Assembly (NCBI GenBank): GCA_958296135.2
Contig: CATQHZ020000001.1
Location: 1,472,001-1,536,000 of the forward strand
Direction: 5' to 3'
DNA: 64,000 bases
DNA from: an uncultured Poribacteria bacterium
Lineage (GTDB): Bacteria > Poribacteria > WGA-4E > WGA-3G
Shown here: piece after piece, positions 6,104 to 53,846 of the stretch
Layout: each line of letters starts with the position of its first letter
How positions within the stretch are numbered: position 1 is the stretch's first letter
Notes under the pieces: model-generated
What the model was told of the DNA's origin: nothing
Databases searched by the model: none
The model's input: only the letters and a program-made list of their open reading frames with translations
Program-made: the position numbers and the translations under genes

Positions 6104-8527
6104 TTAGTCCTTGAATGTGACGACGGTAACGCCTTCGCCGCCCTGGCTCTGCGGCGCGAGTTGAAATTGGGTGACGTGCGGGTTGTCTCGCAATTCCTCG
6201 TGAACCGCTTTGCGCAAGGCTCCTGTCCCTTTGCCGTGGAGAATGCGCACCGTTGGCACACCGGCAAGGTAGGCATCGTCAAGGTATTTATCCGTAATCT
6301 CTACCGCCTCGCTCACCAGCATGCCCCGAATGTTGAGTTCACTTTGGATAGTGTTTGCCTTGCTATACTGAATATCCAGCACGGACGTTGAGATGTTTGC
6401 AACCTCACGTTTCGGTTGAATTGTGTCAATGTCACCGTAGGCGACTTGCATGTGCATGTTGCCCACCGCAATTTTAAGCGGGCTACTGCTCTTCGGTACA
6501 ATGGAGGTGACTTCCCCGAATCGGTTCAATTTTTTGAGGCGCACCTTGTCCCCGATAGCAACTTTCGGCGTGGAGGGTTTCGGCTGTTTTTTGACAGGAG
6601 CCTTCGGTTTCAGCTGTTTTTTCGCCGTTTCGATTTTTGCGAACGCGGCTTGGATGCTTGCTTTAGCGGCATTTTCGCGGCGGATATCGGCGATAAGTTT
6701 CTCTACCGTGCGTCGCGCGTTGGAGACGATGTCTATTGCCTCGTTTTCGGCCTTCTCTTTTAAGACGCGCTGTTCTGTTTCAAAACTTTGAACGAGCCGC
6801 TCGTGTTTTTGGGTTGTCGCTTCAGCGTCGCGAATTTTCGCTTGGAGGCGTGCCCGCTCTGTTTCCAAGGCATTTTTCGTCTCTTGCAGTTCGACGAGTA
6901 ACTCTTCGACAGCGACGTTATTGTTGCCTAAGTGGGTTTGCGCTTCGGCGAGTACCTCGGCGGGGATGCCCAATTGCGCCGCAATTTTAATGGCGTTGCT
7001 ACTGCCCGGCACCCCCACCTGCACGCGATATGTCGGGCGTAGCGTCGCCCAGTCGAATTCCATTGAGGCGTTTTCCATCTGTGCTTGGGTATGCGCATAC
7101 GCCTTGAGCGCGCCGTAGTGTGTTGTGACGATGGTGTTAACCTGGTGTTGCGCGAGCCAATCAAGTAGTGCCATGCTGAGCGCGGTGCCTTCACTCGGGT
7201 CTGTGCCGGCACCGATTTCATCTAACAGCACGAGCGTGTGTGTGTTATGAGCATCGGCGATATGTTCAAGCATCTCGGCGATTTTCGTCATGTGCGAGGA
7301 AAAGGTGCTCAGATTCTGTTCGATGCCTTGTTCATCGCCGATGTCGGCGAAGATTTGATGGAAGATAGCGGTTTGACTTCCCTTCGCGGCGGGGATGTGC
7401 AGACCGGATTGCGCCATCAGTGCCAGCAATCCTACTGTTTTGAGGACGACGGTTTTTCCGCCGGTATTCGGTCCGGTGATAACGAGCGTTTTAAACGATT
7501 TGCCGATATGGATGTTTGTTGGCACGACGCGCGGCGGGAGGGTGTTCCTGTCTTGTTCAGTCAGCGGCGGTGATGCCTTTTTCAGATGGAATTCAAGCAG
7601 TGGGTGTCGTGCGTCAACGAGTTTGACAATGCCGCGGGTATTCAACACAGGTTCAACGGCGTTCAGTGTGATGCTGAAACGTGCCTTAGCGTTCAGAAAA
7701 TCGAGTTCCGCCAGCAGTTCCAAGGCGAGTTCAAGTTCGTGTAGGTTCTCCCGCACTTCGTCTGTCAGTGTGAGGAGGATGCGTCGGATTTCGCGAAGTT
7801 CCGCTTCGGCTGCTTCATGGAGCGCGTTGTTCATTTCAACGATGGCTAGAGGTTCCATAAAGAAGGTAGCACCACTCGTCGATTGCCCTTGGACGACACC
7901 GCGGAAAAATGCCCGCGCCTCCTGTTTGATTGGCAAGACGTAGCGATTGTTCCGGGAGGTGATTACCGGTTCCTGAATGGATTTCAGGTAATCCGGTGAG
8001 CGAAGCATCGCCTCTAATTTTTCATGGACATTTTGACGGAGACGCGACAATTTTCGGCGAATGGCACGCAGTTCCGGGCTGGCTCTATCTAGGATTTCGC
8101 CATCGAGGCTGATGCAGTCGGCAACGGCTTTGACTAACGCCGGAAATGATGGGAGCGCGTCCACGATTGAGAAGAGGTGTGGCAGCTCTTCCGGATTGCG
8201 TTTCGCAAACGCGTTGTGGATATCCGATGGAATCCGCGCGACTTTGCTGATATCGAGGAGTTCTTCTGCGTCTAAGATTGAACCGGCTTTGGCGGCGTGA
8301 CGTAGGGAGTTTCCGATGTGTTTTAGGCCACCCAACGGAATCCCGCCGTAGAGTTGCTGGAAAGTTTTTGCTTCGCTGCACAACTTCTGAAGTTGCCGCA
8401 CCGTGTCGACATCATCGTAAGGCGTGAGTGCCTCGACGCGCGCTGCACCGAGTTGCGAGGCGGTATACTTTTTCAGCAGCACCTTCATTTTATCGTATTC
8501 TAAGACTGTTTCAACGCCGGTTAACAT
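6104..8527 (-). CDS. mutS2: Endonuclease MutS2
   Basis: ITGPNTGGKT, LSTFSSHM, LDEIGAGTDP, C-terminal Smr domain (HGKGTGAL, GGEGVT). Confidence 0.95.
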   Translation of the reverse strand: MLTGVETVLEYDKMKVLLKKYTASQLGAARVEALTPYDDVDTVRQLQKLCSEAKTFQQLYGGIPLGGLKHIGNSLRHAAKAGSILDAEELLDISKVARIPSDIHNAFAKRNPEELPHLFSIVDALPSFPALVKAVADCISLDGEILDRASPELRAIRRKLSRLRQNVHEKLEAMLRSPDYLKSIQEPVITSRNNRYVLPIKQEARAFFRGVVQGQSTSGATFFMEPLAIVEMNNALHEAAEAELREIRRILLTLTDEVRENLHELELALELLAELDFLNAKARFSITLNAVEPVLNTRGIVKLVDARHPLLEFHLKKASPPLTEQDRNTLPPRVVPTNIHIGKSFKTLVITGPNTGGKTVVLKTVGLLALMAQSGLHIPAAKGSQTAIFHQIFADIGDEQGIEQNLSTFSSHMTKIAEMLEHIADAHNTHTLVLLDEIGAGTDPSEGTALSMALLDWLAQHQVNTIVTTHYGALKAYAHTQAQMENASMEFDWATLRPTYRVQVGVPGSSNAIKIAAQLGIPAEVLAEAQTHLGNNNVAVEELLVELQETKNALETERARLQAKIRDAEATTQKHERLVQSFETEQRVLKEKAENEAIDIVSNARRTVEKLIADIRRENAAKASIQAAFAKIETAKKQLKPKAPVKKQPKPSTPKVAIGDKVRLKKLNRFGEVTSIVPKSSSPLKIAVGNMHMQVAYGDIDTIQPKREVANISTSVLDIQYSKANTIQSELNIRGMLVSEAVEITDKYLDDAYLAGVPTVRILHGKGTGALRKAVHEELRDNPHVTQFQLAPQSQGGEGVTVVTFKD

Positions 8528-27110: not shown

Positions 27111-28337
27111 ATGGCACTACGAGCCCAGAAGATAGCACTCAAACCTAGCGAGAAACAAGTTGCGATGTTCTGTCGTCACGTGGATTTCGCCCGTGTCGCC
27201 TATAATGCGGCGCACTCGGAATCCCGTGACGCCGCGCGTTGGATGTCTGTCTACGACATTAAGAAGGCATTCAACTCTCGCAAACGTGACGTGTTCCCCG
27301 AATTCGCGGACTGCTCGCAGAACGCTGGTAAGAATGCTATCCACGCCTTTGAGGATGCTCGCCAACGTTGGAAGTCCGGACAGAACAATCGTCCCAAGCG
27401 GAAGACGCATAAATCAAAGCCATCGTTCCAAATTGACAACGGCGTTGGCACTGTCCGTATCACGGCGGATGGTAACGCTGCTGTCCTCCCGAAAATAGGT
27501 CATGTGAGGTTGCGAGAGAAACCACGCTATGTCGGCGAGATTCGCCGCGCCTTCATATCCCGAAAGGCAAGCACCTGGTTTATCAGCATCCTCGTCGAAG
27601 TTGATGTCCCGGAACCGCCCGACACGTCAGCACTGCCCCCTGCAGGTTGTGATGTCGGCATCTCTGCCCTCGCCACAATGGACGATGGCACTGTCTATGA
27701 AAATCCGCGTGCCTTGCGCGTCAATGAACGCAAACTACGCCGTGCAAATAAGGCACTCTCCCGCAAGACGTTCCTGAGCCGCAACTGGTGGAAGGCGAAG
27801 GAACGCCTCGCTCGCCTGCATGCCCGTATCGCAAATATCCGGAGCGATGCCCATCATCAGGCGACACATCGCATCCTGCAAGGCATCTCGGCACTTGGCA
27901 TCGAGAGCCTCACCGTGAAAGGTTTGATGAAAAATCGCAAGCTTAGCAAGGCACTCGCTGACGCAAGCCTCGGTGGTTTTCTCGTCAAACTTAAATACAA
28001 AGCGGTGCGCCGTGGTATCCGCATTGTGTCGGCAGATCAGTTCTGGCCGTCAACACAGCGATGCAGTTCCTGTGGCTACGTCAAACGTGGCGAATTCAAA
28101 CTGACGCTCAAGGACAGAGAATACCACTGCGGTGTTTGTGGATTCGTTGAAGATCGGGATGTCAACGCCGCTATAAACCTTCGACAACTCGCGTCTAGCA
28201 CGGACGAGAGTCTAAACGCCTGTGGAGATGCTGTCACACCTACTTTGGTAGGCTGGCATCAGAACCCGCGTGTGCGCGGAAGAAGCAGGAAACCGCTGAC
28301 CGAACAGAGACTCGTAGACTTTGCACATGGCAGATAA
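27111..28337 (+). CDS. tnpB: RNA-guided endonuclease TnpB
   Basis: RuvC D (GCDVG), E (GIESL) and D (DRDVNAA) intact; CSSCG...CGVCG zinc finger. Confidence 0.93.
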   Translation: MALRAQKIALKPSEKQVAMFCRHVDFARVAYNAAHSESRDAARWMSVYDIKKAFNSRKRDVFPEFADCSQNAGKNAIHAFEDARQRWKSGQNNRPKRKTHKSKPSFQIDNGVGTVRITADGNAAVLPKIGHVRLREKPRYVGEIRRAFISRKASTWFISILVEVDVPEPPDTSALPPAGCDVGISALATMDDGTVYENPRALRVNERKLRRANKALSRKTFLSRNWWKAKERLARLHARIANIRSDAHHQATHRILQGISALGIESLTVKGLMKNRKLSKALADASLGGFLVKLKYKAVRRGIRIVSADQFWPSTQRCSSCGYVKRGEFKLTLKDREYHCGVCGFVEDRDVNAAINLRQLASSTDESLNACGDAVTPTLVGWHQNPRVRGRSRKPLTEQRLVDFAHGR

Positions 28338-47436: not shown

Positions 47437-48258
47437 CTATTTGTTGAATTCCCAGAGCCGCAACGCTGTTTTCCCCAAAACCCATTCCCTATCTTCAGGC
47501 GTGAAGAAGTCCATTTCGTCGCGCACAACCGCCAGCGTTTGCGCATAACTTGCACGCTTCAAGCAGACGGGCCAATCCGTGCCCCACATTATCCGATTGC
47601 CGCCGAAGGCGTGATATACCCGCTTCACCTGGGCGAACGTATCTGTCCACGGATACCCTGTGTTGGAGAGGGACCAGGTATGGCTAATCTTGACATAGAC
47701 GCGCGGGAATCGCGCGAGGTTCAGGAGCCATTCAAGTTTTTCGGGTGCCGCAGGCGAACAATCCGCCATGTGGTCTACCACGACATCCAGGGCCTCATGC
47801 TGTTCCAAGAGTGGCACCAGGTCAGCGAGTCGTTCGGGCCCCGTCAAGATAAGCATGGGCACGCGGAGTGTTTCGGCGCGTTTGAAGATGGGTGGCATTA
47901 AGGGCCCGGTGAACCAATCGCCGGCGGGGCCGACAGCAGGACTCAGTCGAACGCCATGGAAACCGTGTTCCTCTGTCCAGCGGCTGAGGTGCTCTGGTGC
48001 GCCCGGGTCTTCCGGGTTAATTCGGCATACGCCCATGAGTTTATCGGGATACCTCTTCATCGCGTCTGCGGCGTAACTGTTGTCCCACCGATAGTGGATG
48101 ACTTGGACGAGTACAGTCTTTTCAACGCCGTTGGCTGCCATCAATTCCAGCAACATCTCCGCTGTGGCATCTTCGGTAGGTGGGTTCGTTGTCTCTGGTG
48201 CCCACGGGAACCTCGGGTCATTTTTCCATACGTGAACGTGCGGGTCGATAATTCTCAT
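47437..48258 (-). CDS. Amidohydrolase family protein (lactonase-like)
   Basis: IIDPHVHVW, VVDHM, MWGTDWP. Confidence 0.88.
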   Translation of the reverse strand: MRIIDPHVHVWKNDPRFPWAPETTNPPTEDATAEMLLELMAANGVEKTVLVQVIHYRWDNSYAADAMKRYPDKLMGVCRINPEDPGAPEHLSRWTEEHGFHGVRLSPAVGPAGDWFTGPLMPPIFKRAETLRVPMLILTGPERLADLVPLLEQHEALDVVVDHMADCSPAAPEKLEWLLNLARFPRVYVKISHTWSLSNTGYPWTDTFAQVKRVYHAFGGNRIMWGTDWPVCLKRASYAQTLAVVRDEMDFFTPEDREWVLGKTALRLWEFNK

Positions 48259-48259
48259 G

Positions 48260-49297
48260 CTATTTCTCCTTTACAGGTTCGTGCTGCGTCTGTCCGAATA
48301 AGAATCCGAACGCGCCTAAAGGCAGGCAATACAACAAAATCATCAGGTGGAGGCTAAACCCGACGACGGTGCCAGTCTCTTTTGAGGTGCCGAAGAGGTG
48401 GAGCAGCCATACAAACGGAAACTCGGTTGTTCCGAAGTTGCCGACGGTTTGGATAGGTAGCAGGTTAAATCCATTTGTAAAGACGAGCGCGAACAGCACC
48501 TCAATCAACGGAATCTCAACGCCCATTTCGGCGACGAGGTAGCACTGAAACCCAAAACGAATTGCGAGGCAGAGGCATGAATATGCCCAAACCTTCAGAA
48601 ACGGATGGATGTGGCTTTTCATGGCCGTGGCCATCCGGACAATCTGCGTTACTTCGCGAATGACAGCCATTCCCTTGTTGACTATCCATGTGAGCGGCGT
48701 TTTATTAAGCCGCAGCAGCGGCATTGCGCATCTCTCGGCGAGAGCCGTGCAAGAATTGGGTGCAGCGCAAGCGAAAACCAGCACTGTCAGCAGCCCGCCT
48801 CCGATAAGCAGCGGCATCAGATAGAGCAATGTCCAACTGATGCTTTGCAAGCGCGCTTGCAGGAGTGAGGCTGTGCCTACCATCAAACCGATTAACAGGA
48901 GTAGATCGATGAGACTTGCGACGAGAAGCGATGCGATGCCTTGCGTTGCATTGACTTTCTGCCGCCGTTGCATCAGATAGACATAGGAGACATCCCCGGT
49001 CCGCATCGGCAGGAAATTCCCCCAGAAGGTGTGCAAGGCGAGAATGGGGAAGAGTTGATGCACCGGGCGGCTCTCCAATCCCAGTAATTCGCGGAAGCGG
49101 AGCGTTTTGCACCACACCAGCAGGCAGTAACAGCCGAATCCGATGAGCAGTGCCTTGATGGACAGTCGGCTCAGCGTTTTCGGTATCTCTCGGATGTCGA
49201 TTTCCTTTAATAGAAAGGAGGTGATGATTATCGCCAGTGCCGTGGGTAAGACGATTTTGGCAATTTGCCGGCATCGCGTTGTGTTTAAAAGCAGCAT
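48260..49297 (-). CDS. Lysylphosphatidylglycerol synthase TM (flippase-like) protein
   Basis: Multi-TM; NFLPMRTGD, LPIQTVGNFGTTE. Confidence 0.8.
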   Translation of the reverse strand: MLLLNTTRCRQIAKIVLPTALAIIITSFLLKEIDIREIPKTLSRLSIKALLIGFGCYCLLVWCKTLRFRELLGLESRPVHQLFPILALHTFWGNFLPMRTGDVSYVYLMQRRQKVNATQGIASLLVASLIDLLLLIGLMVGTASLLQARLQSISWTLLYLMPLLIGGGLLTVLVFACAAPNSCTALAERCAMPLLRLNKTPLTWIVNKGMAVIREVTQIVRMATAMKSHIHPFLKVWAYSCLCLAIRFGFQCYLVAEMGVEIPLIEVLFALVFTNGFNLLPIQTVGNFGTTEFPFVWLLHLFGTSKETGTVVGFSLHLMILLYCLPLGAFGFLFGQTQHEPVKEK

Positions 49298-49303
49298 TAT
49301 GTG

Positions 49304-49594
49304 CTATTTGCGTTTAAGTGCTTCCTGCGCGCGCCGCAGCGCGAAACGGGCATCAACATCATTTGGGTTTTGTTGAATCGCCGCCTTGAAGTCCTCAATA
49401 GCGGTATCAAGTTGCCCCAACCGATCCTTCGCCATTCCACGATTGTAGTAGGCATCAACGCGAGGGTTGAGTTGGATTGCCTTGTTATAGTTGACAATAG
49501 CGGCATGATATTGCCCAAGCATGTTCTTTGGCTCTCCCTGATTACGGAATGCTTCGGCACCCGCCTGTTTGGTTTGCATAATAGTATCCTCCAC
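49304..49594 (-). CDS. Small TPR protein
   Basis: YNKAIQLNP..AYYNRG..AIEDFKAAIQQNP. Confidence 0.75.
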   Translation of the reverse strand: MEDTIMQTKQAGAEAFRNQGEPKNMLGQYHAAIVNYNKAIQLNPRVDAYYNRGMAKDRLGQLDTAIEDFKAAIQQNPNDVDARFALRRAQEALKRK

Positions 49595-49670
49595 ATTTCT
49601 AAATCTTATTGAAGTTTACCTGATAAAGTATACCACGAAAATTTGTTTTTGTCAATTTTTACGAAAAAGT

Positions 49671-49700
49671 TTGACATAAGAATGCGAACTATGGTATGCT
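49671..49700 (+). promoter_or_regulatory. Probable native mutS promoter (now upstream of the tnpB element)
   Basis: TTGACA-N18-TATGCT with extended TG; divergent TTGACA-N17-TATACT promoter at 49627..49655. Confidence 0.6.
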
Positions 49701-49837
49701 ATATTAGGAAGATTTTTATGTCGCTTGCGAAGTTTGGGTTAAATAAATCACTGAAAGGAGGACGTTCCTAGCCCCCGAAAATCGAGCCACATCGTGGTAA
49801 AAGCGGATTTATCGTGATAAACGCCAACATAAGTGTT

Positions 49838-49900
49838 ACCGTGTTGGGCAATGATATCACCGCCAGCGCATTGCCCACCTTGTGATAAAGGCAAACACGG
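49838..49900 (+). ncRNA. Candidate structured 5' leader RNA of tnpB-2
   Basis: P1 CCGTGTT/AACACGG, P2 GGGCAATG/CATTGCCC, P3 CCTT/AAGG, pseudoknot TATCAC/GTGATA. Confidence 0.6.
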
Positions 49901-49916
49901 CATACGGGAACACCTC

Positions 49917-50996
49917 ATGAAAACGCACAATATTGCACTGCGCCCGACAGCGGCACAGGTTACCCAATTCCATCAGCACGCGGGCTATCGCCGATTTGTC
50001 TATAACGCTGCTTTGTCCGATTTCAAAGCAGGCTTAGCTGAAGGCGAATGGCGAAACGGCCGCACGTTGCGCACTCGGTTTAATGCCGTGAAGGACGCGC
50101 AGTTTGCGTGGCAGCAGCCGCTCATTGCGCGTGTTGCATCACATGCCTTCGATGATTTTAACACGGCGTGTCAACGGTGGAAAAACAAACTTGCCAAGTT
50201 TCCAAAGTATAAGCGGAAGTCGGGAAAGCAGTCCTTCCGCGTTGACAATAAACGTAACGCCATAACTTGTGATGGCAAGCGGCTTTTCCTGCCGAAGATA
50301 GGCTGGGTGCGGACGTTTGAAGCGTTGCGGTTCAAAGGCGACGTGATGCGCGTAGTGATTAAGAAGCGAGGGCATCGTTGGTTTGCATCGGTGCTCGTCG
50401 AAACCATGCCACTAGCCAAACCCGATTTACGCGGTTTGCCTACCGTGGGCATCGATGTGGGTATCAACACCCTCGCCACTTGCTCTGATGGACGCACCTT
50501 TGGAAACCCACGCGCCTTGGCCCGTTATCAACGTCAACTTTGCCGTGCGCAACGCGCCCTGAGTCGTTCAGTCTATCGCAGTCAGAATTGGTGGAAGAAG
50601 AAGGAACGTGTTGTCCGTATCCACTATCGCATCGCTTGCATCCGTGAGGATGCACATCACAAGGCAAGCACGGCGATTGTGCAGGGCGTGTCGGCGATAG
50701 GCATTGAGTCTCTGAACGTCAAAGGTATGCTCAAGAACCGTCGGCTTGCGAAAGCATTGTCGGACGCTGCACTGGGTGGATTCCTCACCAAGTTAAAGAC
50801 GAAGGCACAGGCACTCGGCGTGCGGATTGAGGAAGCCTCTCAGTGGTTCGCTTCATCGAAGACGTGCAGTGCATGCGGACATAAAAAGGATACCCTCACG
50901 TTATCGGAACGTGAGTATCACTGCAGTGACTGTGGGTTGCGGGCGGACCGCGACTGGAACGCTGCTATAAATTTAACCCCCTCGCCGCTGGTTTGA
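49917..50996 (+). CDS. tnpB: RNA-guided endonuclease TnpB
   Basis: GIDVG, GIESL and DRDWNAA RuvC residues; CSACG...CSDCG zinc finger. Confidence 0.93.
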   Translation: MKTHNIALRPTAAQVTQFHQHAGYRRFVYNAALSDFKAGLAEGEWRNGRTLRTRFNAVKDAQFAWQQPLIARVASHAFDDFNTACQRWKNKLAKFPKYKRKSGKQSFRVDNKRNAITCDGKRLFLPKIGWVRTFEALRFKGDVMRVVIKKRGHRWFASVLVETMPLAKPDLRGLPTVGIDVGINTLATCSDGRTFGNPRALARYQRQLCRAQRALSRSVYRSQNWWKKKERVVRIHYRIACIREDAHHKASTAIVQGVSAIGIESLNVKGMLKNRRLAKALSDAALGGFLTKLKTKAQALGVRIEEASQWFASSKTCSACGHKKDTLTLSEREYHCSDCGLRADRDWNAAINLTPSPLV

Positions 50997-51172
50997 CGGA
51001 GAGGTATGGGTGTTACCTCTCGTATCCGAGAGTTAATACCTTAAACGCTTGTGGAGCTCGTGTCAGACTTCGTTTGGAAGCAGTGAGTGTTGAAGCAGGA
51101 ACTTTAGAAATCGGACATAAGTATCCAGATATGTCTCGATTTCAGGGAACAGAACGATATGCCACGTGTAAG
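50981..51172 (+). ncRNA. Predicted omegaRNA of tnpB-2; guide overlaps the mutS start
   Basis: Scaffold motifs shared with element 1; subterminal hairpin AAATCGGACATA..TATGTCTCGATTT. Confidence 0.6.
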
Positions 51173-53846
51173 ACTGTCCGAACCTTCGTTGATAGAAATC
51201 TATAAACAGGTTAAAAAACAGCATGAGGATGCCATCCTGCTTTGCCGGGTGGGTGATTTCTACGAGGCTTTCTATGAAGACGCGGAGTTAATCGCGCGCC
51301 TGTTGGAAATTACCCTGACGGCCCGGAGCCACAAGAACCAGAAAAAACCGTCGCCGCCGATGGCAGGTATCCCGCACCACGCGCTTGATTCCTACCTCTA
51401 TAAATTGGTGAAAGCCGGGCACAAAGTCGCCATTTTGGAACAGACGGAAGACCCGAGGCAGGCGCGCGATGAGAACCGTCTTGTCAAGCGCGATGTCGTC
51501 CGCATCGTGACACCCGGCACCGTCACCGATCCGAAGGTGCTTGAGCGTAAGGTGAACAACTACCTCATCTCGCTCTATCTGCGCAAGGGTACCTACGGGT
51601 TCGCCGCCGCCGATCTCTCCACCGGCGAATTTCTCGTCACAGAAGTGGCGGAGCTCTCCAAACTCTGGGCTGAAATCCATCGGTTTGCGCCGAAGGAATT
51701 CCTCTTCTCGGAAACCTTCAACGATGAGGAGATGTTGGAGCGGCTCAAAACCGAAGTGAAAGCGACGCTCAACTTTCTACCGGAGTGGCGGTTTGAATTC
51801 GACACCGCGCGCACCGAACTCCTGCAACACTTCCGCACGGTTTCACTGGATGGGTTTGGATGCGAACATCTGCCGATGGCTATCTGTGCCGCCGGCGCGC
51901 TCATCTATTACCTCCACGAAACCCAGAAGCAGGAGGTAGAACATATTCTGTCCCTCCAGCCCTATACGCTCTCGGATTTTATGGTGCTGGATGCCGATAC
52001 ACAGCGCAACCTGGAGTTGACGGCCTCTATTCGCGATGGCACTTCAAAGGGCACACTGCTTGAAGTGTTGGACCAGACGGCTACCTCGATGGGCGGCAGA
52101 AAGATTCGGCAGTGTCTCTTGCAACCGTTGCTTTCAACGGTAGAGATTGCGGCGCGCCTAGATGCAGTTGACGAGCTCAAGACGCAGATTAACCTTCAGG
52201 AAGAATTGCGGGAAGCCCTCGGACAGATGTATGATATGGAGCGGCTCATCTCCCGTATCAGCCTCGGGTCTGTGAACGGCCGCGACCTGCATTCACTCAA
52301 GGACTCGCTGTGCCTGATACCCGCGGTCAAGGCGCAGCTGGAGCACTGTGAGTCCCCGTTGTTAGTCGCGCAAAACGAGGCACTCGATCCGAGGACAGAT
52401 TTGGTGGCATTGATTGAGCGTGGTATTCATCCGAAGCCTCCGGTAACGATTCGCGAAGGTGGCATCATTCGCGATGGGTATAGCGAGGAGCTTGATGAGC
52501 TCCGACAGATTGTCGGGCAGGGGAAGGAGTGGATGGACGCGCTACAAGAGGCGGAACGCAAGAGCAGCGGCATTACCTCCCTGAAAATCGGATACAACCA
52601 GGTCTTCGGCTATTACATTGATGTGACGAAACCGAACCTGCACATGGTGCCGGACTACTACATCCGGAAGCAGACTTTGCGTAATTCCGAACGGTTCATT
52701 ACGCCGGAGCTTAAGGAGAAAGAAGCAATGGTGCTGAACGCGGAGGACCGGATTCAGACGCTGGAATACGAGCTCTTCTGTCAGATTCGGGAGGAGGTGG
52801 CGAAATGGACGAAGGCGATTCAAACTGTTTCTGCTGTTATCGCGATGGTTGACGTTATCGCAAACTTCGCTTATGTCGCCTCCAGATACAACTACGCCAA
52901 ACCTACTGTGGAGGATAGTGACGAGGTGATTATCCGCGATGGACGGCACCCGGTAGTGGAGCAATTGTTCACGCAAGAGGGATTCGTTCCGAACGACACG
53001 CGGCTTAACTGCGCCGATGAGCAGCTGCATATCATTACAGGCCCGAATATGAGCGGGAAAAGCACCTATTTGCGCCAGACAGCCCTCATCGTGTTGATGG
53101 CACAAGTGGGGAGTTTTGTGCCGGCCTCCGCTGCGAAAATCGGGTTAGTCGACCGGATTTTCACGCGCGTTGGCGCGTCTGACAACCTTGTGATGGGACA
53201 AAGCACGTTCCTCGTCGAGATGAACGAAACGGCGAACATTCTCAACAACGCCAGCAGTAAAAGCCTCGTCATTTTGGACGAAGTCGGGCGCGGCACTAGC
53301 ACATTTGATGGGCTCAGCATCGCGTGGGCAGTCTCGGAGTATTTGCTAGACGAAAAGCGGATGGGCGCGAAGACGCTCTTCGCCACGCACTACCACGAGC
53401 TGGTGGAGCTCGCTAGCAAGTACAAGCGCGCGAAGAATTACAACGTCGCCGTTCATGAAGATGGCGAAAAGGTGACGTTTCTCCGGAAAGTCGTGCCCGG
53501 TGGCGCAGACCAGAGTTACGGCATCCACGTCGCGCGATTGGCAGGATTGCCGCACGCGGTGATTGCGCGTGCGCAGCAGATTCTGGAGGTGTTGGAACAG
53601 CACAATATCAGCGTTGAGGCGGACAGCGCGACGGGACGGCCGCCGAAGGCGCATCCGAAGATGCCGCGGCCGCGGCGGCGTACCTCTCGTCAAACGCTGC
53701 AGAGCGACGCGTTGCAGATGGCACTCTTTACGCCGAAGACGCATCCCCTCGTTGAGGAAATCCGGCGGCTAGAGCTCTCGCAGGTGACACCTTTGGATGC
53801 GGTGAACATTCTCTACGATCTGAAGGCGCGGGCGGAAGAGGCGTGA
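51159..53846 (+). CDS. mutS: DNA mismatch repair protein MutS
   Basis: RVGDFYEAF, RIVTPGT, ITGPNMSGKST, STFLVEM, LDEVGRGT, SYGIHVA. Confidence 0.97.
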   Translation: MPRVRLSEPSLIEIYKQVKKQHEDAILLCRVGDFYEAFYEDAELIARLLEITLTARSHKNQKKPSPPMAGIPHHALDSYLYKLVKAGHKVAILEQTEDPRQARDENRLVKRDVVRIVTPGTVTDPKVLERKVNNYLISLYLRKGTYGFAAADLSTGEFLVTEVAELSKLWAEIHRFAPKEFLFSETFNDEEMLERLKTEVKATLNFLPEWRFEFDTARTELLQHFRTVSLDGFGCEHLPMAICAAGALIYYLHETQKQEVEHILSLQPYTLSDFMVLDADTQRNLELTASIRDGTSKGTLLEVLDQTATSMGGRKIRQCLLQPLLSTVEIAARLDAVDELKTQINLQEELREALGQMYDMERLISRISLGSVNGRDLHSLKDSLCLIPAVKAQLEHCESPLLVAQNEALDPRTDLVALIERGIHPKPPVTIREGGIIRDGYSEELDELRQIVGQGKEWMDALQEAERKSSGITSLKIGYNQVFGYYIDVTKPNLHMVPDYYIRKQTLRNSERFITPELKEKEAMVLNAEDRIQTLEYELFCQIREEVAKWTKAIQTVSAVIAMVDVIANFAYVASRYNYAKPTVEDSDEVIIRDGRHPVVEQLFTQEGFVPNDTRLNCADEQLHIITGPNMSGKSTYLRQTALIVLMAQVGSFVPASAAKIGLVDRIFTRVGASDNLVMGQSTFLVEMNETANILNNASSKSLVILDEVGRGTSTFDGLSIAWAVSEYLLDEKRMGAKTLFATHYHELVELASKYKRAKNYNVAVHEDGEKVTFLRKVVPGGADQSYGIHVARLAGLPHAVIARAQQILEVLEQHNISVEADSATGRPPKAHPKMPRPRRRTSRQTLQSDALQMALFTPKTHPLVEEIRRLELSQVTPLDAVNILYDLKARAEEA

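What the first reader, a model, noticed from the sequence alone, without database searches (positions are those of the whole stretch)
49741..51180. tnpB element splits the mutS Shine-Dalgarno from its start codon; its guide RNA would be the mutS 5' end
Seen: a strong orphan SD (GAAAGGAG, ending 49760) precedes the element and AACGAT-ATG of mutS follows it directly. Both junctions carry AG and the ends are imperfect inverted repeats. Precise excision gives GAAAGGAG-AACGAT-ATG. Known: IS607-family elements excise precisely at a dinucleotide core, and TnpB guides come from the right flank and cut the empty site. Inference: mutS is now translated from a weak substitute SD on a tnpB-mutS transcript whose omegaRNA processing would take away the mutS start region, while TnpB kills revertants. 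This could be an element-enforced hypomorphic mismatch-repair (mutator) state or a reversible switch.
Basis: partly seen in the sequence, partly recalled or inferred. Interest (0 to 1): 0.82.

Follow-up and report, generated by a model that had tools for sequence, protein, structure and literature searches.

The report
IS607 tnpB element splits mutS Shine-Dalgarno
A small mobile element carrying an RNA-guided nuclease gene sits exactly between the ribosome-binding site and the start codon of the DNA-repair gene mutS, and this turns out to be the usual landing place of its whole transposon family, not something special to mutS.

Summary
A 1,392-bp tnpB-only element (window 49761-51152) separates GAAAGGAG (ends 49760) from AACGAT-ATG of an intact mutS. 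A same-genus genome carries the empty site (…CACTGAAAGGAG then AACGCT ATG). AG lies at both junctions, with no target duplication.

It is a non-autonomous IS607-family element:
- TnpB has an intact RuvC triad.
- The guide-RNA scaffold is a weak RAGATH-18 look-alike with covarying stems.
- Two autonomous copies in the same genome share its end motifs and encode a MerR-HTH serine recombinase.
- The target consensus from 8 copies is RRGAG. This matches the published AGGAG TAM of IS607 TnpBs.

Splitting the ribosome-binding site from the start codon is a family habit:
- 8 of 10 AG-core copies in this genome have a start codon 4-12 nt after the right end.
- So do 9 of 15 RAGATH-18-bearing IS607 loci from Firmicutes and others.
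- Random-position baselines are 5-10%.

SD/anti-SD pairing falls from -9.0 to -4.9 kcal/mol.

The mutator or switch idea is unsupported. mutS shows dN/dS of about 0.05 with no excess change on this lineage, and no RNA data exist.

The parts
49671..49700 (+). Promoter-like site (TTGACA, 18 nt, TATGCT with TG) upstream of the element. It corresponds to the conserved promoter-like motif seen upstream of mutS in relatives.
   Evidence: 10 of 12 matches. Relatives' upstream regions show TTGACA...GGTATT 55-85 nt before the ATG.
49753..49760 (+). Orphaned mutS Shine-Dalgarno GAAAGGAG. Its last five bases AGGAG (49756-49760) are the inferred target/TAM, and AG (49759-60) is the left copy of the core dinucleotide.
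   Evidence: SD/anti-SD -9.0 kcal/mol in the reconstructed empty site.
49761..51152 (+). Non-autonomous IS607-family element, 1,392 bp, tnpB only. The boundary can be shifted by 2 nt because AG is at both junctions.
   Evidence: 8 copies at 83-92% nt identity. Empty sites in relatives.
49761..49830 (+). Left end with the motif CCTAGCCCCCGAAAATCGAG, shared with the autonomous IS607 copies. Inverted-repeat arm at 49774-49793.
49917..50996 (+). tnpB, 359 aa, RuvC D180/E264/D346 invariant in the 6 aligned copies.
   Evidence: Pairwise dN/dS 0.08-0.15 among 8 intact copies.
51010..51152 (+). Predicted guide-RNA (omegaRNA/reRNA) scaffold. RAGATH-18-like core at 51048-51101, terminal stem 51107-51117 paired with 51132-51143, then single-stranded AGGGAACAG (51144-51152). 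The 5' limit is approximate.
   Evidence: RF03064, 20 bits, E 0.18 in a 231-nt search, below the gathering score of 44.9. (24.3 bits in copy c3). (57 predicted pairs, 11 with both-side changes).
51153..51172 (+). Predicted 20-nt guide, i.e. the first bases of the right flank. It includes the SD-start spacer AACGAT and the mutS start codon (51159-51161).
   Evidence: Inference from position. The guide length of 20 nt is taken from PMC11061315 (passages).
51159..53846 (+). mutS, 895 aa, all five MutS domains, intact.

Best explanation
This is a non-autonomous IS607-family insertion sequence (tnpB plus its guide RNA, no tnpA).

How it got there (inferred). The family's serine transposase exchanges strands at an AG core and prefers RRGAG targets. 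TnpB has the matching AGGAG-type TAM. That motif is the core of the Shine-Dalgarno sequence, so the element lands a few bases before start codons, in the orientation of the host gene. At mutS it separated AAGGAG from AACGAT-ATG.

What follows (inferred, not shown).
- tnpB, the guide RNA and mutS are read from the native mutS promoter as one transcript.
- The guide is the mutS start region. With TnpB it can cut only the empty site (TAM AGGAG). It cannot cut the occupied site, where AACAG stands in the TAM position. Excision events are therefore repaired back to the occupied state.
- mutS is now translated from a weaker SD-like AGGGAA in the right end, probably at a lower level. The gene has still been kept under strong purifying selection.

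The placement at mutS is one instance of a family-wide habit, not a dedicated mutS switch.
For: Identity of the element:
- Pfam domains and an invariant RuvC triad.
- Closest solved chains are TnpBs, including 8iaz at E 2.7e-45.
- A weak but correctly placed RAGATH-18 match and covarying stems.

IS607 membership:
- AG at both junctions in 8 of 8 copies, with no duplication.
- Scarless empty sites at 3 of 3 loci where a same-genus orthologue aligned: mutS, TPP enzyme and macro-domain gene.
- Two 1.85-kb elements with a MerR-HTH + Resolvase tnpA and a tnpB share GAG|...CCCCGAAAATC at the left end and GGAACAG| at the right end.

The literature gives AGGAG as the TAM of IS607 TnpBs (PMC11061315 and PMC13565253, passages). 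It also describes the core-dinucleotide mechanism and discrimination of self at position -3 (bioRxiv 10.1101/2023.11.20.567912, passages).

Family habit of landing before start codons:
- 8 of 10 AG-core copies in this genome.
- The 71-72% identical copy in a same-genus genome.
- 9 of 15 RAGATH-18-positive loci from other phyla.
- AAGGAG left flanks in 3 Bacillus loci.
- Baselines are 9.7% and 5.2%. GG-core families in the same genome give 5 of 22 (Fisher P 0.005).

Expression context: promoter upstream, none inside, no terminator. SD pairing is -9.0 before and -4.9 after insertion.

mutS is retained: pairwise dN/dS 0.05-0.065 against same-genus genomes. dN from G000 to outgroup G004 (0.071) is lower than for G001 (0.090) or G002 (0.084).
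Against: - No RNA or protein data. No RNA run holds the locus, so co-transcription, guide-RNA maturation and the MutS level are all inferred.
- The RAGATH-18 match is far below Rfam's gathering score (20-24 against 44.9 bits).
- TAM-contact residues of ISFba1 TnpB are only partly conserved in the pairwise alignment: N121 kept, K80 to R, K83 to S, N122 to K (my reading).
- Two of the 8 family copies are not at gene starts.
- Enrichment over a generous null is about P 3e-3 only. This null treats every RGAG outside long ORFs, plus all SD sites, as equally likely, giving 24% (my arithmetic from the counts). Selection on where insertions survive, rather than target choice alone, could therefore explain part of the pattern.
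- Whether the two autonomous copies can mobilise this element is untested. One of them has an altered motif around the catalytic serine.
- The promoter/terminator scan is a simple consensus scan.
Confidence: 0.8

Rival explanations
1. The insertion is a functional, element-enforced hypomorphic mismatch-repair allele (mutator state) or a reversible mutS switch. TnpB kills revertants, and guide-RNA processing removes the mutS start region from the shared transcript.
For: - The SD is displaced by 1.39 kb and the substitute pairs with the anti-SD at -4.9 instead of -9.0 kcal/mol.
- The scaffold's terminal stem and the TnpB binding site end 6 nt before the ATG.
- The guide would include the start codon.
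- Serine transposase genes with matching ends exist in the genome, so excision is conceivable.
- There is only one MutS1-type gene.
Against: - The same arrangement is found at 7 other unrelated genes in this genome and in 9 of 15 loci of other phyla, so nothing singles out mutS.
- mutS is intact, with dN/dS about 0.05 and no excess non-synonymous change on this lineage.
- The element copies differ by dS 0.11-0.58. If they diverged in place, the insertion is old and mutS has stayed constrained throughout.
- No empty-site form was seen among the contigs of the one sample that holds the locus. Contigs drop rare variants, so this is weak.
- No expression or mutation-rate data exist.
Confidence: 0.1
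2. The position at start codons reflects survival, not targeting. The element inserts at any RRGAG or AG, and only insertions in short non-coding stretches survive. The SD-start pattern would then be a by-product of purifying selection with no target preference beyond the motif.
For: - RGAG is frequent: 72,679 sites, of which 2,347 lie 4-9 nt before an ATG opening >=100 aa.
- Two copies sit just past the stop codons of convergent genes.
- IS607 itself is reported to have little specificity beyond its core (PMC6188088, passages).
Against: - Even if all RGAG outside long ORFs plus all SD sites are taken as equally available (24%), 6 of 8 or more is expected with P about 3e-3 (my arithmetic).
- An insertion that removes the SD should be more harmful, not less, than one elsewhere in a spacer.
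- GG-core IS607 families in the same genome, under the same selection, show 5 of 22 against 8 of 10.
Confidence: 0.1
3. It is an IS200/IS605-family element moved by a Y1 (HUH) transposase as single-stranded DNA, with GGAG as its left-flank target.
For: - The closest solved TnpB by sequence includes ISDra2 TnpB, an IS200/IS605 member (E 3.8e-46).
- The genome has two Y1_Tnp matches.
Against: - Neither Y1 gene lies at a tnpB listed; the nearest tnpB is about 8 kb away.
- The end motifs are shared with elements that carry a serine recombinase gene.
- The same dinucleotide at both junctions is the IS607 signature.
- The guide scaffold resembles RAGATH-18, which accompanies IS607 TnpBs.
Confidence: 0.03

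Closest known systems
[quoted passage not shown] ISFba1 (Ren et al. 2024, Cell Res, PMC11061315; passages read)
   Same: - TnpB of similar size, with the guide scaffold downstream of tnpB ending at the right end.
- AG-rich TAM (AGGAG) next to the left end.
- RuvC D-E-D triad.
- The conserved scaffold motif UGUGGAG...GUUGAAGCAGGAA is present.
- 15 of 20 more distant relatives fetched here carry a RAGATH-18 above the gathering score.
   Different: - About 30% protein identity to the solved chain 8iaz.
- The RAGATH-18 match is far below threshold.
- No tnpA in this copy.
- The host is related to a record titled Candidatus Poribacteria, not Firmicutes.
- The -5 position of the target is A or G.
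- That paper's main text never mentions Shine-Dalgarno, ribosome or start codon (0 occurrences). Its supplements could not be read.
CboIStron / IS607-family restorative homing (Zedaveinyte et al., bioRxiv 10.1101/2023.11.20.567912; passages read)
   Same: - A serine transposase with a core dinucleotide present at both junctions.
- Scarless donor joint.
- TAM equals the transposase target.
- The last two scaffold bases equal the last two TAM bases.
- Self is told apart at position -3. There it is TGGG against TCGG; here it is RGAG against ACAG.
   Different: - The core is AG, not GG.
- There is no group I intron, so the host transcript is not repaired by splicing.
- The insertion is in a 5' leader rather than in a coding sequence.
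IS607 of Helicobacter pylori / IS1535 (Chen et al. 2018, eLife, PMC6188088; passages read)
   Same: No target duplication. Subterminal short repeats. MerR-type HTH + serine recombinase TnpA in the autonomous relatives. tnpB is dispensable cargo.
   Different: IS607 uses a GG core with a (G)GG preference and no further target pattern. Here the core is AG with a G at -3 and purines at -4 and -5.
TldR, nuclease-dead TnpB-derived RNA-guided repressors
   Same: A TnpB-type protein whose guide matches the 5' region of a host gene.
   Different: The RuvC triad and C-terminus are intact in all copies. The element is multicopy and mobile. The occupied site lacks the TAM, so no binding to the resident locus is expected.

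Membership tests
IS607 family | Serine-recombinase TnpA with an N-terminal MerR-type HTH, encoded in the element | tested here: not met
   This copy and its 7 sisters have no tnpA. Two 1.85-kb elements in the same genome with the same end motifs encode a 207/208-aa protein with Resolvase (E 3.5e-17) and MerR/HTH_17 matches. The copy is therefore filed as a non-autonomous member.
IS607 family | No target-site duplication; the same core dinucleotide at both junctions and in the empty target | tested here: met
   AG at both junctions in 8 of 8 family copies and 2 of 2 autonomous copies. Empty sites in same-genus genomes at mutS, the TPP-enzyme gene and the macro-domain gene contain a single AG and no extra bases.
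IS607 family | GG core dinucleotide (stated for most members) | tested here: not met
   The core is AG. Two other tnpB families in the same genome do use GG, with target AGGG and right ends ...GCGG. AGGAG-type TAMs, which end in AG, are published for IS607 TnpBs.
TnpB RNA-guided nuclease | OrfB_IS605 / Cas12f1-like TNB domains with a complete RuvC D-E-D triad | tested here: met
   Pfam E 3.1e-25, 2.7e-19 and 2.5e-08. D180, E264 and D346 are invariant in 6 aligned copies and align with the RuvC motifs of solved TnpBs.
TnpB RNA-guided nuclease | Guide-dependent, TAM-dependent DNA cleavage | not testable with these tools
   Only inferred from conservation (dN/dS 0.08-0.15 among 8 copies).
RAGATH-18 RNA (Rfam RF03064) as TnpB guide scaffold | Match to the covariance model at or above the gathering score, located between tnpB and the right end | tested here: inconclusive
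   20.0 bits (window 51048-51101, E 0.18 in a 231-nt search) and 24.3 bits (copy c3, E 1.1 in 18.6 kb), against a gathering score of 44.9. No hit at E<=1 in the first 5-kb search. The position (51-61 nt before the right end) and the conserved motifs fit. Stems covary.
AGGAG-TAM IS607 TnpB clade | AGGAG (or GAGGG) immediately 5' of the left end | tested here: met
   The 5-mers before the junction are AGGAG (4 copies), GGGAG (2), GAGAG and AAGAG in the 8 copies, and AGGAG in the same-genus relative. The TAM itself was not assayed.
IS200/IS605 family | Y1 (HUH) transposase gene associated with the element family | tested here: not met
   Two Y1_Tnp matches in the genome, neither at a tnpB listed; the nearest tnpB is about 8 kb away.
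TldR (nuclease-dead TnpB repressor) | Loss of RuvC catalytic residues or a truncated C-terminus | tested here: not met
   The triad and C-terminus are intact.

The most novel reading that the evidence does not exclude
IS607 elements with AGGAG/GAGGG TAMs are Shine-Dalgarno-seeking transposons across phyla. By matching their target and TAM to the ribosome-binding motif, they routinely lodge between SD and start codon. This has three consequences:
- They borrow the host gene's promoter for tnpB and the guide RNA.
- Their guides fall on conserved start-codon regions, which would favour homing into naive alleles.
- Host genes are left dependent on whatever SD-like sequence the right end offers.

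At mutS this could give a heritable, TnpB-protected reduction of mismatch repair.
Probability: 0.3. Interest if true: 0.75.

Novelty: new member of a known kind. Interest (0 to 1): 0.55.

Why it matters
The element itself is an ordinary member of a recently characterised class: IS607 TnpB with a RAGATH-18-type guide and an AGGAG TAM.

What seems under-appreciated is the consequence of that TAM. It is the Shine-Dalgarno core, and the copies examined here mostly sit between a gene's ribosome-binding site and its start codon. This holds for 8 of 10 copies in this genome and 9 of 15 in other phyla. The guide then covers the start codon.

I found no paper linking the two:
- TnpB + Shine-Dalgarno + insertion + start codon returned 7 papers, 6 listed, none relevant.
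- IS607 + Shine-Dalgarno returned 3 unrelated papers.
- IS607 + ribosome binding site + target site returned 3 unrelated papers.
- TnpB + AGGAG + ribosome returned 0 papers.
- RAGATH-18 returned 22 papers, none on this by its listing.
- Ren et al. has 0 occurrences of these words.

If general, the pattern bears on several questions: how these elements are expressed, why they are tolerated, how host genes cope, and how to read TnpB-adjacent genes in annotation. For mutS specifically, it raises a testable but so far unsupported possibility of lowered mismatch repair.

Tried and rejected
- **RNA evidence.** No RNA holder was listed for the locus. The four runs laid were contigs only. They cross both junctions in the occupied form and show no joint across the element. 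This says nothing about rare empty alleles or about expression.
- **More family copies elsewhere.** Two metagenome scans found nothing closer than 43% identity. The genome-collection scan found one copy at 71%. Among 40 relatives, only one same-genus genome has a match at E<=1e-130.
- **Rfam first pass.** 48000-53000 at E<=1 gave only a chance microRNA match. The RAGATH-18 resemblance appeared only in narrower searches.
- **TAM-contact residues.** Comparison with the solved chain 8iaz was inconclusive.
- **Empty sites for the other copies.** For the M24-peptidase copy only a family-level orthologue was found, with SD AAGGAG but diverged flanks. For the ABC-ATPase copy the same-genus orthologues have a different gene junction, ATGA overlap in G001. 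These two sites are therefore not counted as confirmed empty sites.
- **Autonomous family C element.** The resolvase gene next to a 45% tnpB at G000:C1:3726105 seems to lack the N-terminal HTH, and the family C left-end motif was not found within 3 kb. I did not resolve this.
- I made no structure prediction or complex prediction, as neither would change the reading. Supplementary files of Ren et al. (TAM logos, element tables) could not be read and may bear on whether insertion next to an SD was noted there.

Full report
**What is there.** The window stretch 49400-51500 reads ...AATCACTGAAAGGAG (ending 49760). A 1,392-bp insert follows, then AACGAT and the ATG of a long ORF at 51159.
- Pfam finds HTH_OrfB_IS605, OrfB_IS605 and Cas12f1-like_TNB in the 359-aa ORF 49917-50996.
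- All five MutS domains are found in the 895-aa ORF 51159-53846.

**Boundaries.** The same genome (G000, 5.19 Mb, 4 contigs) has 8 copies at 83-92% nucleotide identity.
- Similarity starts at GAG|GACGTTCCTAGC and ends at ...TTTCAGGGAACAG in all 8.
- The bases before the junction are always purine-purine-G-A-G: AGGAG in 4 copies, GGGAG in 2, plus GAGAG and AAGAG.
- The bases after the right end are unrelated between copies.
- AG therefore stands at both junctions, and there is no target duplication.
- The subterminal regions form an imperfect inverted repeat (49774-49793 against 51128-51147, 80%).

**The empty site exists.** I fetched mutS from 40 relatives and read the upstream sequence of 30 loci, one of them G000 itself.
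- None of the 29 others has the element.
- The same-genus genome G001 reads ...ATCACTGAAAGGAG followed directly by AACGCT ATG. This is the predicted excision product with one substitution.
- G002 reads ...AAGGAG followed by AACACT ATG.
- Most family-level relatives have AAGGA(G/A) 6-8 nt before the ATG.
- At two further insertion sites, the same-genus genomes also show the exact junction with a single AG. The TPP-enzyme gene reads ...ACAAGGAG then ACACCCC ATG. The macro-domain gene reads ...GGAG then AAACAAACC ATG.
- GAG therefore belongs to the host and the insertion is scarless.
- Contigs of one public sample cross both junctions in the occupied form, so the arrangement is not an assembly error.

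**What kind of element.** The genome holds about 33 tnpB genes in three families.
- Two families use a GG core with AGGG targets and right ends ...GCGG.
- One copy of those families follows a resolvase-type gene.
- Two 1.85-kb elements carry a 207/208-aa gene with MerR-type HTH and Resolvase domains plus a distant tnpB.
- Their ends share with our family the junction GAG|, the left-end motif CCCCGAAAATC(C)GAG and the right-end terminus GGAACAG|.
- The published IS607 mechanism has a serine transposase, a core dinucleotide present at both junctions and in the target, and a scarless donor joint (PMC6188088 and bioRxiv 10.1101/2023.11.20.567912, passages only).
- On this basis the mutS element is a non-autonomous IS607-family member with an AG core.
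- The two Y1 transposase matches in the genome are not next to any tnpB listed. That speaks against IS200/IS605.

**TnpB and its guide RNA.**
- All 8 copies have open tnpB frames. Pairwise dS is 0.11-0.58 and dN/dS 0.08-0.15.
- D180, E264 and D346 are invariant and align with the RuvC motifs of solved TnpBs.
- Downstream of tnpB, an alignment of 9 copies folds into nested stems. Of 57 predicted pairs, 11 keep pairing through changes on both sides.
- Rfam gives a weak, full-length RAGATH-18 match 51-61 nt before the right end: 24.3 bits in copy c3 and 20.0 bits at window 51048-51101. The gathering score is 44.9.
- The conserved UGUGGAG...GUUGAAGCAGGAA motif is present.
- RAGATH-18-derived RNAs are the published guides of IS607 TnpBs. 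Their TAM is AGGAG in 18 of 22 strains and GAGGG in 4 of 22, with best activity at a 20-nt guide (PMC11061315, passages; review PMC13565253, passages).
- In the occupied locus the TAM position holds AACAG. It differs from RRGAG at -3, the position that tells self from target in the studied IStron system.

**The main new point: this is a family habit.**
- In this genome, 8 of the 10 elements with these ends have a start codon of an ORF of at least 100 aa 4-12 nt after the right end, on the same strand.
- The downstream genes are mutS, a TPP enzyme, an M24 peptidase, an ABC ATPase (directly after the stop codon of the upstream gene), a macro-domain protein, a 101-aa ORF, and two ORFs next to the autonomous copies.
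- The two exceptions lie just past the stop codons of convergent genes.
- The 71-72% identical copy in a same-genus genome reads ...CCATAGGAG | element | AAAATA ATG.
- At 200,000 random positions the same criterion is met by 9.7% (3.4% for ATG only).
- Among all 72,679 RGAG sites, 3.2% are followed by such an ATG.
- Even a generous null of 24% gives about P 3e-3 (my arithmetic).
- The GG-core families in the same genome reach 3 of 10 and 2 of 12 (Fisher P 0.005).
- I then took 20 distant relatives (28-33% TnpB identity) from other phyla out of the 80 loci. They were chosen for being mostly Firmicutes.
- 15 of those 20 carry a RAGATH-18 above the gathering score.
- In 9 of these 15, a start codon of an ORF of at least 80 aa lies 6-9 nt after a conserved right end (...GTAGCAG| or ...GTAACGG|). 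The baseline in these loci is 5.2%.
- The other 6 loci did not show this.
- In the three Bacillus loci where the left end could be placed, it is preceded by AAGGAG.
- The 5 loci without a RAGATH-18 hit were not analysed.

**Consequences for mutS: which steps are shown and which inferred.**
- Shown: a promoter-like site (TTGACA, 18 nt, TATGCT) at 49671-49700. It matches the conserved motif upstream of mutS in relatives.
- Shown: no + strand promoter or terminator match inside the element.
- Shown: the best pairing of the 22 nt before the ATG with the 16S rRNA tail falls from -9.0 kcal/mol in the empty arrangement to -4.9 kcal/mol (AGGGA in the right end). Five other sites show similar drops.
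- Inferred: tnpB, the guide RNA and mutS share a transcript.
- Inferred: TnpB bound to the scaffold, and trimming of the RNA to guide length, compete with mutS translation.
- Inferred: MutS is made at a lower level.

Against a strong effect:
- mutS is intact.
- Its pairwise dN/dS to the two same-genus genomes is 0.049 and 0.065.
- Its dN to the outgroup G004 (0.071) is lower than that of G001 (0.090) or G002 (0.084).
- mutL is intact, and there is one MutS1-type gene.
- If the element copies diverged in place (dS 0.23 to the nearest copy), the insertion is old and mutS has stayed constrained.

**Verdict.**
- Observation: confirmed.
- Interpretation: partly supported. Family, excision product, guide and TAM are right. 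The mutator or switch reading has no support and loses its specificity, because the same arrangement is the norm for this transposon clade.
- The element is a new member of a known kind.
- The link between the AGGAG TAM and Shine-Dalgarno sites was not found in print. The searches and their counts are listed under Why it matters (one search listed 12 of 328 papers holding 3 of 4 terms, none on this by title). Ren et al. does not mention it in the main text, and its supplements were not readable.
- That link is the part worth following up.

Noticed in passing
window 27117-28181 (+), right end about 28377: A second tnpB in the window, 47% identical in protein to the one at mutS. It belongs to a 12-copy GG-core IS607 family (target AGGG, right end ...GTAGTGCGG).
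   Followed up: partly
window about 6929-7486 (-): A second MutS_V-domain match (129.5 bits, 840-aa open frame), probably a MutS2-type paralogue.
   Followed up: no
G026, G029, G035 mutS loci: In three same-order genomes of one genus, the mutS match is split around residue 626-645 by several hundred extra in-frame codons without stops (open frames of 1277-1302 aa). This looks like an intein in the ATPase domain.
   Followed up: no
G000:C1 copies at 1930892, 3036004, 3386330, 4547368: Four of the 8 family copies carry an extra module of about 200 bp in the left end. Three copies of the 54% family carry a different extra module of about 150 bp at the equivalent place. Both contain hairpin-like repeats.
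   Followed up: no
window 51003-51043 and alignment A2: The guide-RNA region differs between copies by whole hairpins. A 36-nt hairpin just after the tnpB stop is present in 4 copies, including the mutS one. A 22-nt insert in the loop of the RAGATH-18-like core is present in the 4 others. The skips seen in the laid contigs at 51004-51043 are these other copies.
   Followed up: partly
window 50014-50027 and 51104-51117: A 14-nt stretch near the 5' end of tnpB is 93% complementary to one arm of the terminal scaffold stem. It could be chance or a long-range pairing in the tnpB mRNA.
   Followed up: no
G000:C1:4836194-4838050 (L248, L232): One of the two autonomous AG-core IS607 copies has a changed sequence around the presumed catalytic serine (ICFGFRVSG against ICYCRVSG in the other copy), so it may be inactive.
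   Followed up: no
G000:C1:3726105-3727840 (L230): The resolvase-type gene directly upstream of a GG-core tnpB starts only a few residues before the catalytic motif (171 aa from the first start codon, 194-aa open frame). It appears to lack the HTH domain. The family's left-end motif was not found within the 3-kb locus.
   Followed up: partly
run X5, laid on window 49756-49830: A low-depth contig from a second study carries the left junction of another family copy (the one before the macro-domain gene). That insertion is therefore present in a second sample.
   Followed up: no
window 49297-49596 (-): The 99-aa ORF divergent from mutS has no Pfam match. A strong promoter-like site for it (TTGACA, 17 nt, TATACT) lies back to back with the mutS promoter.
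   Followed up: no
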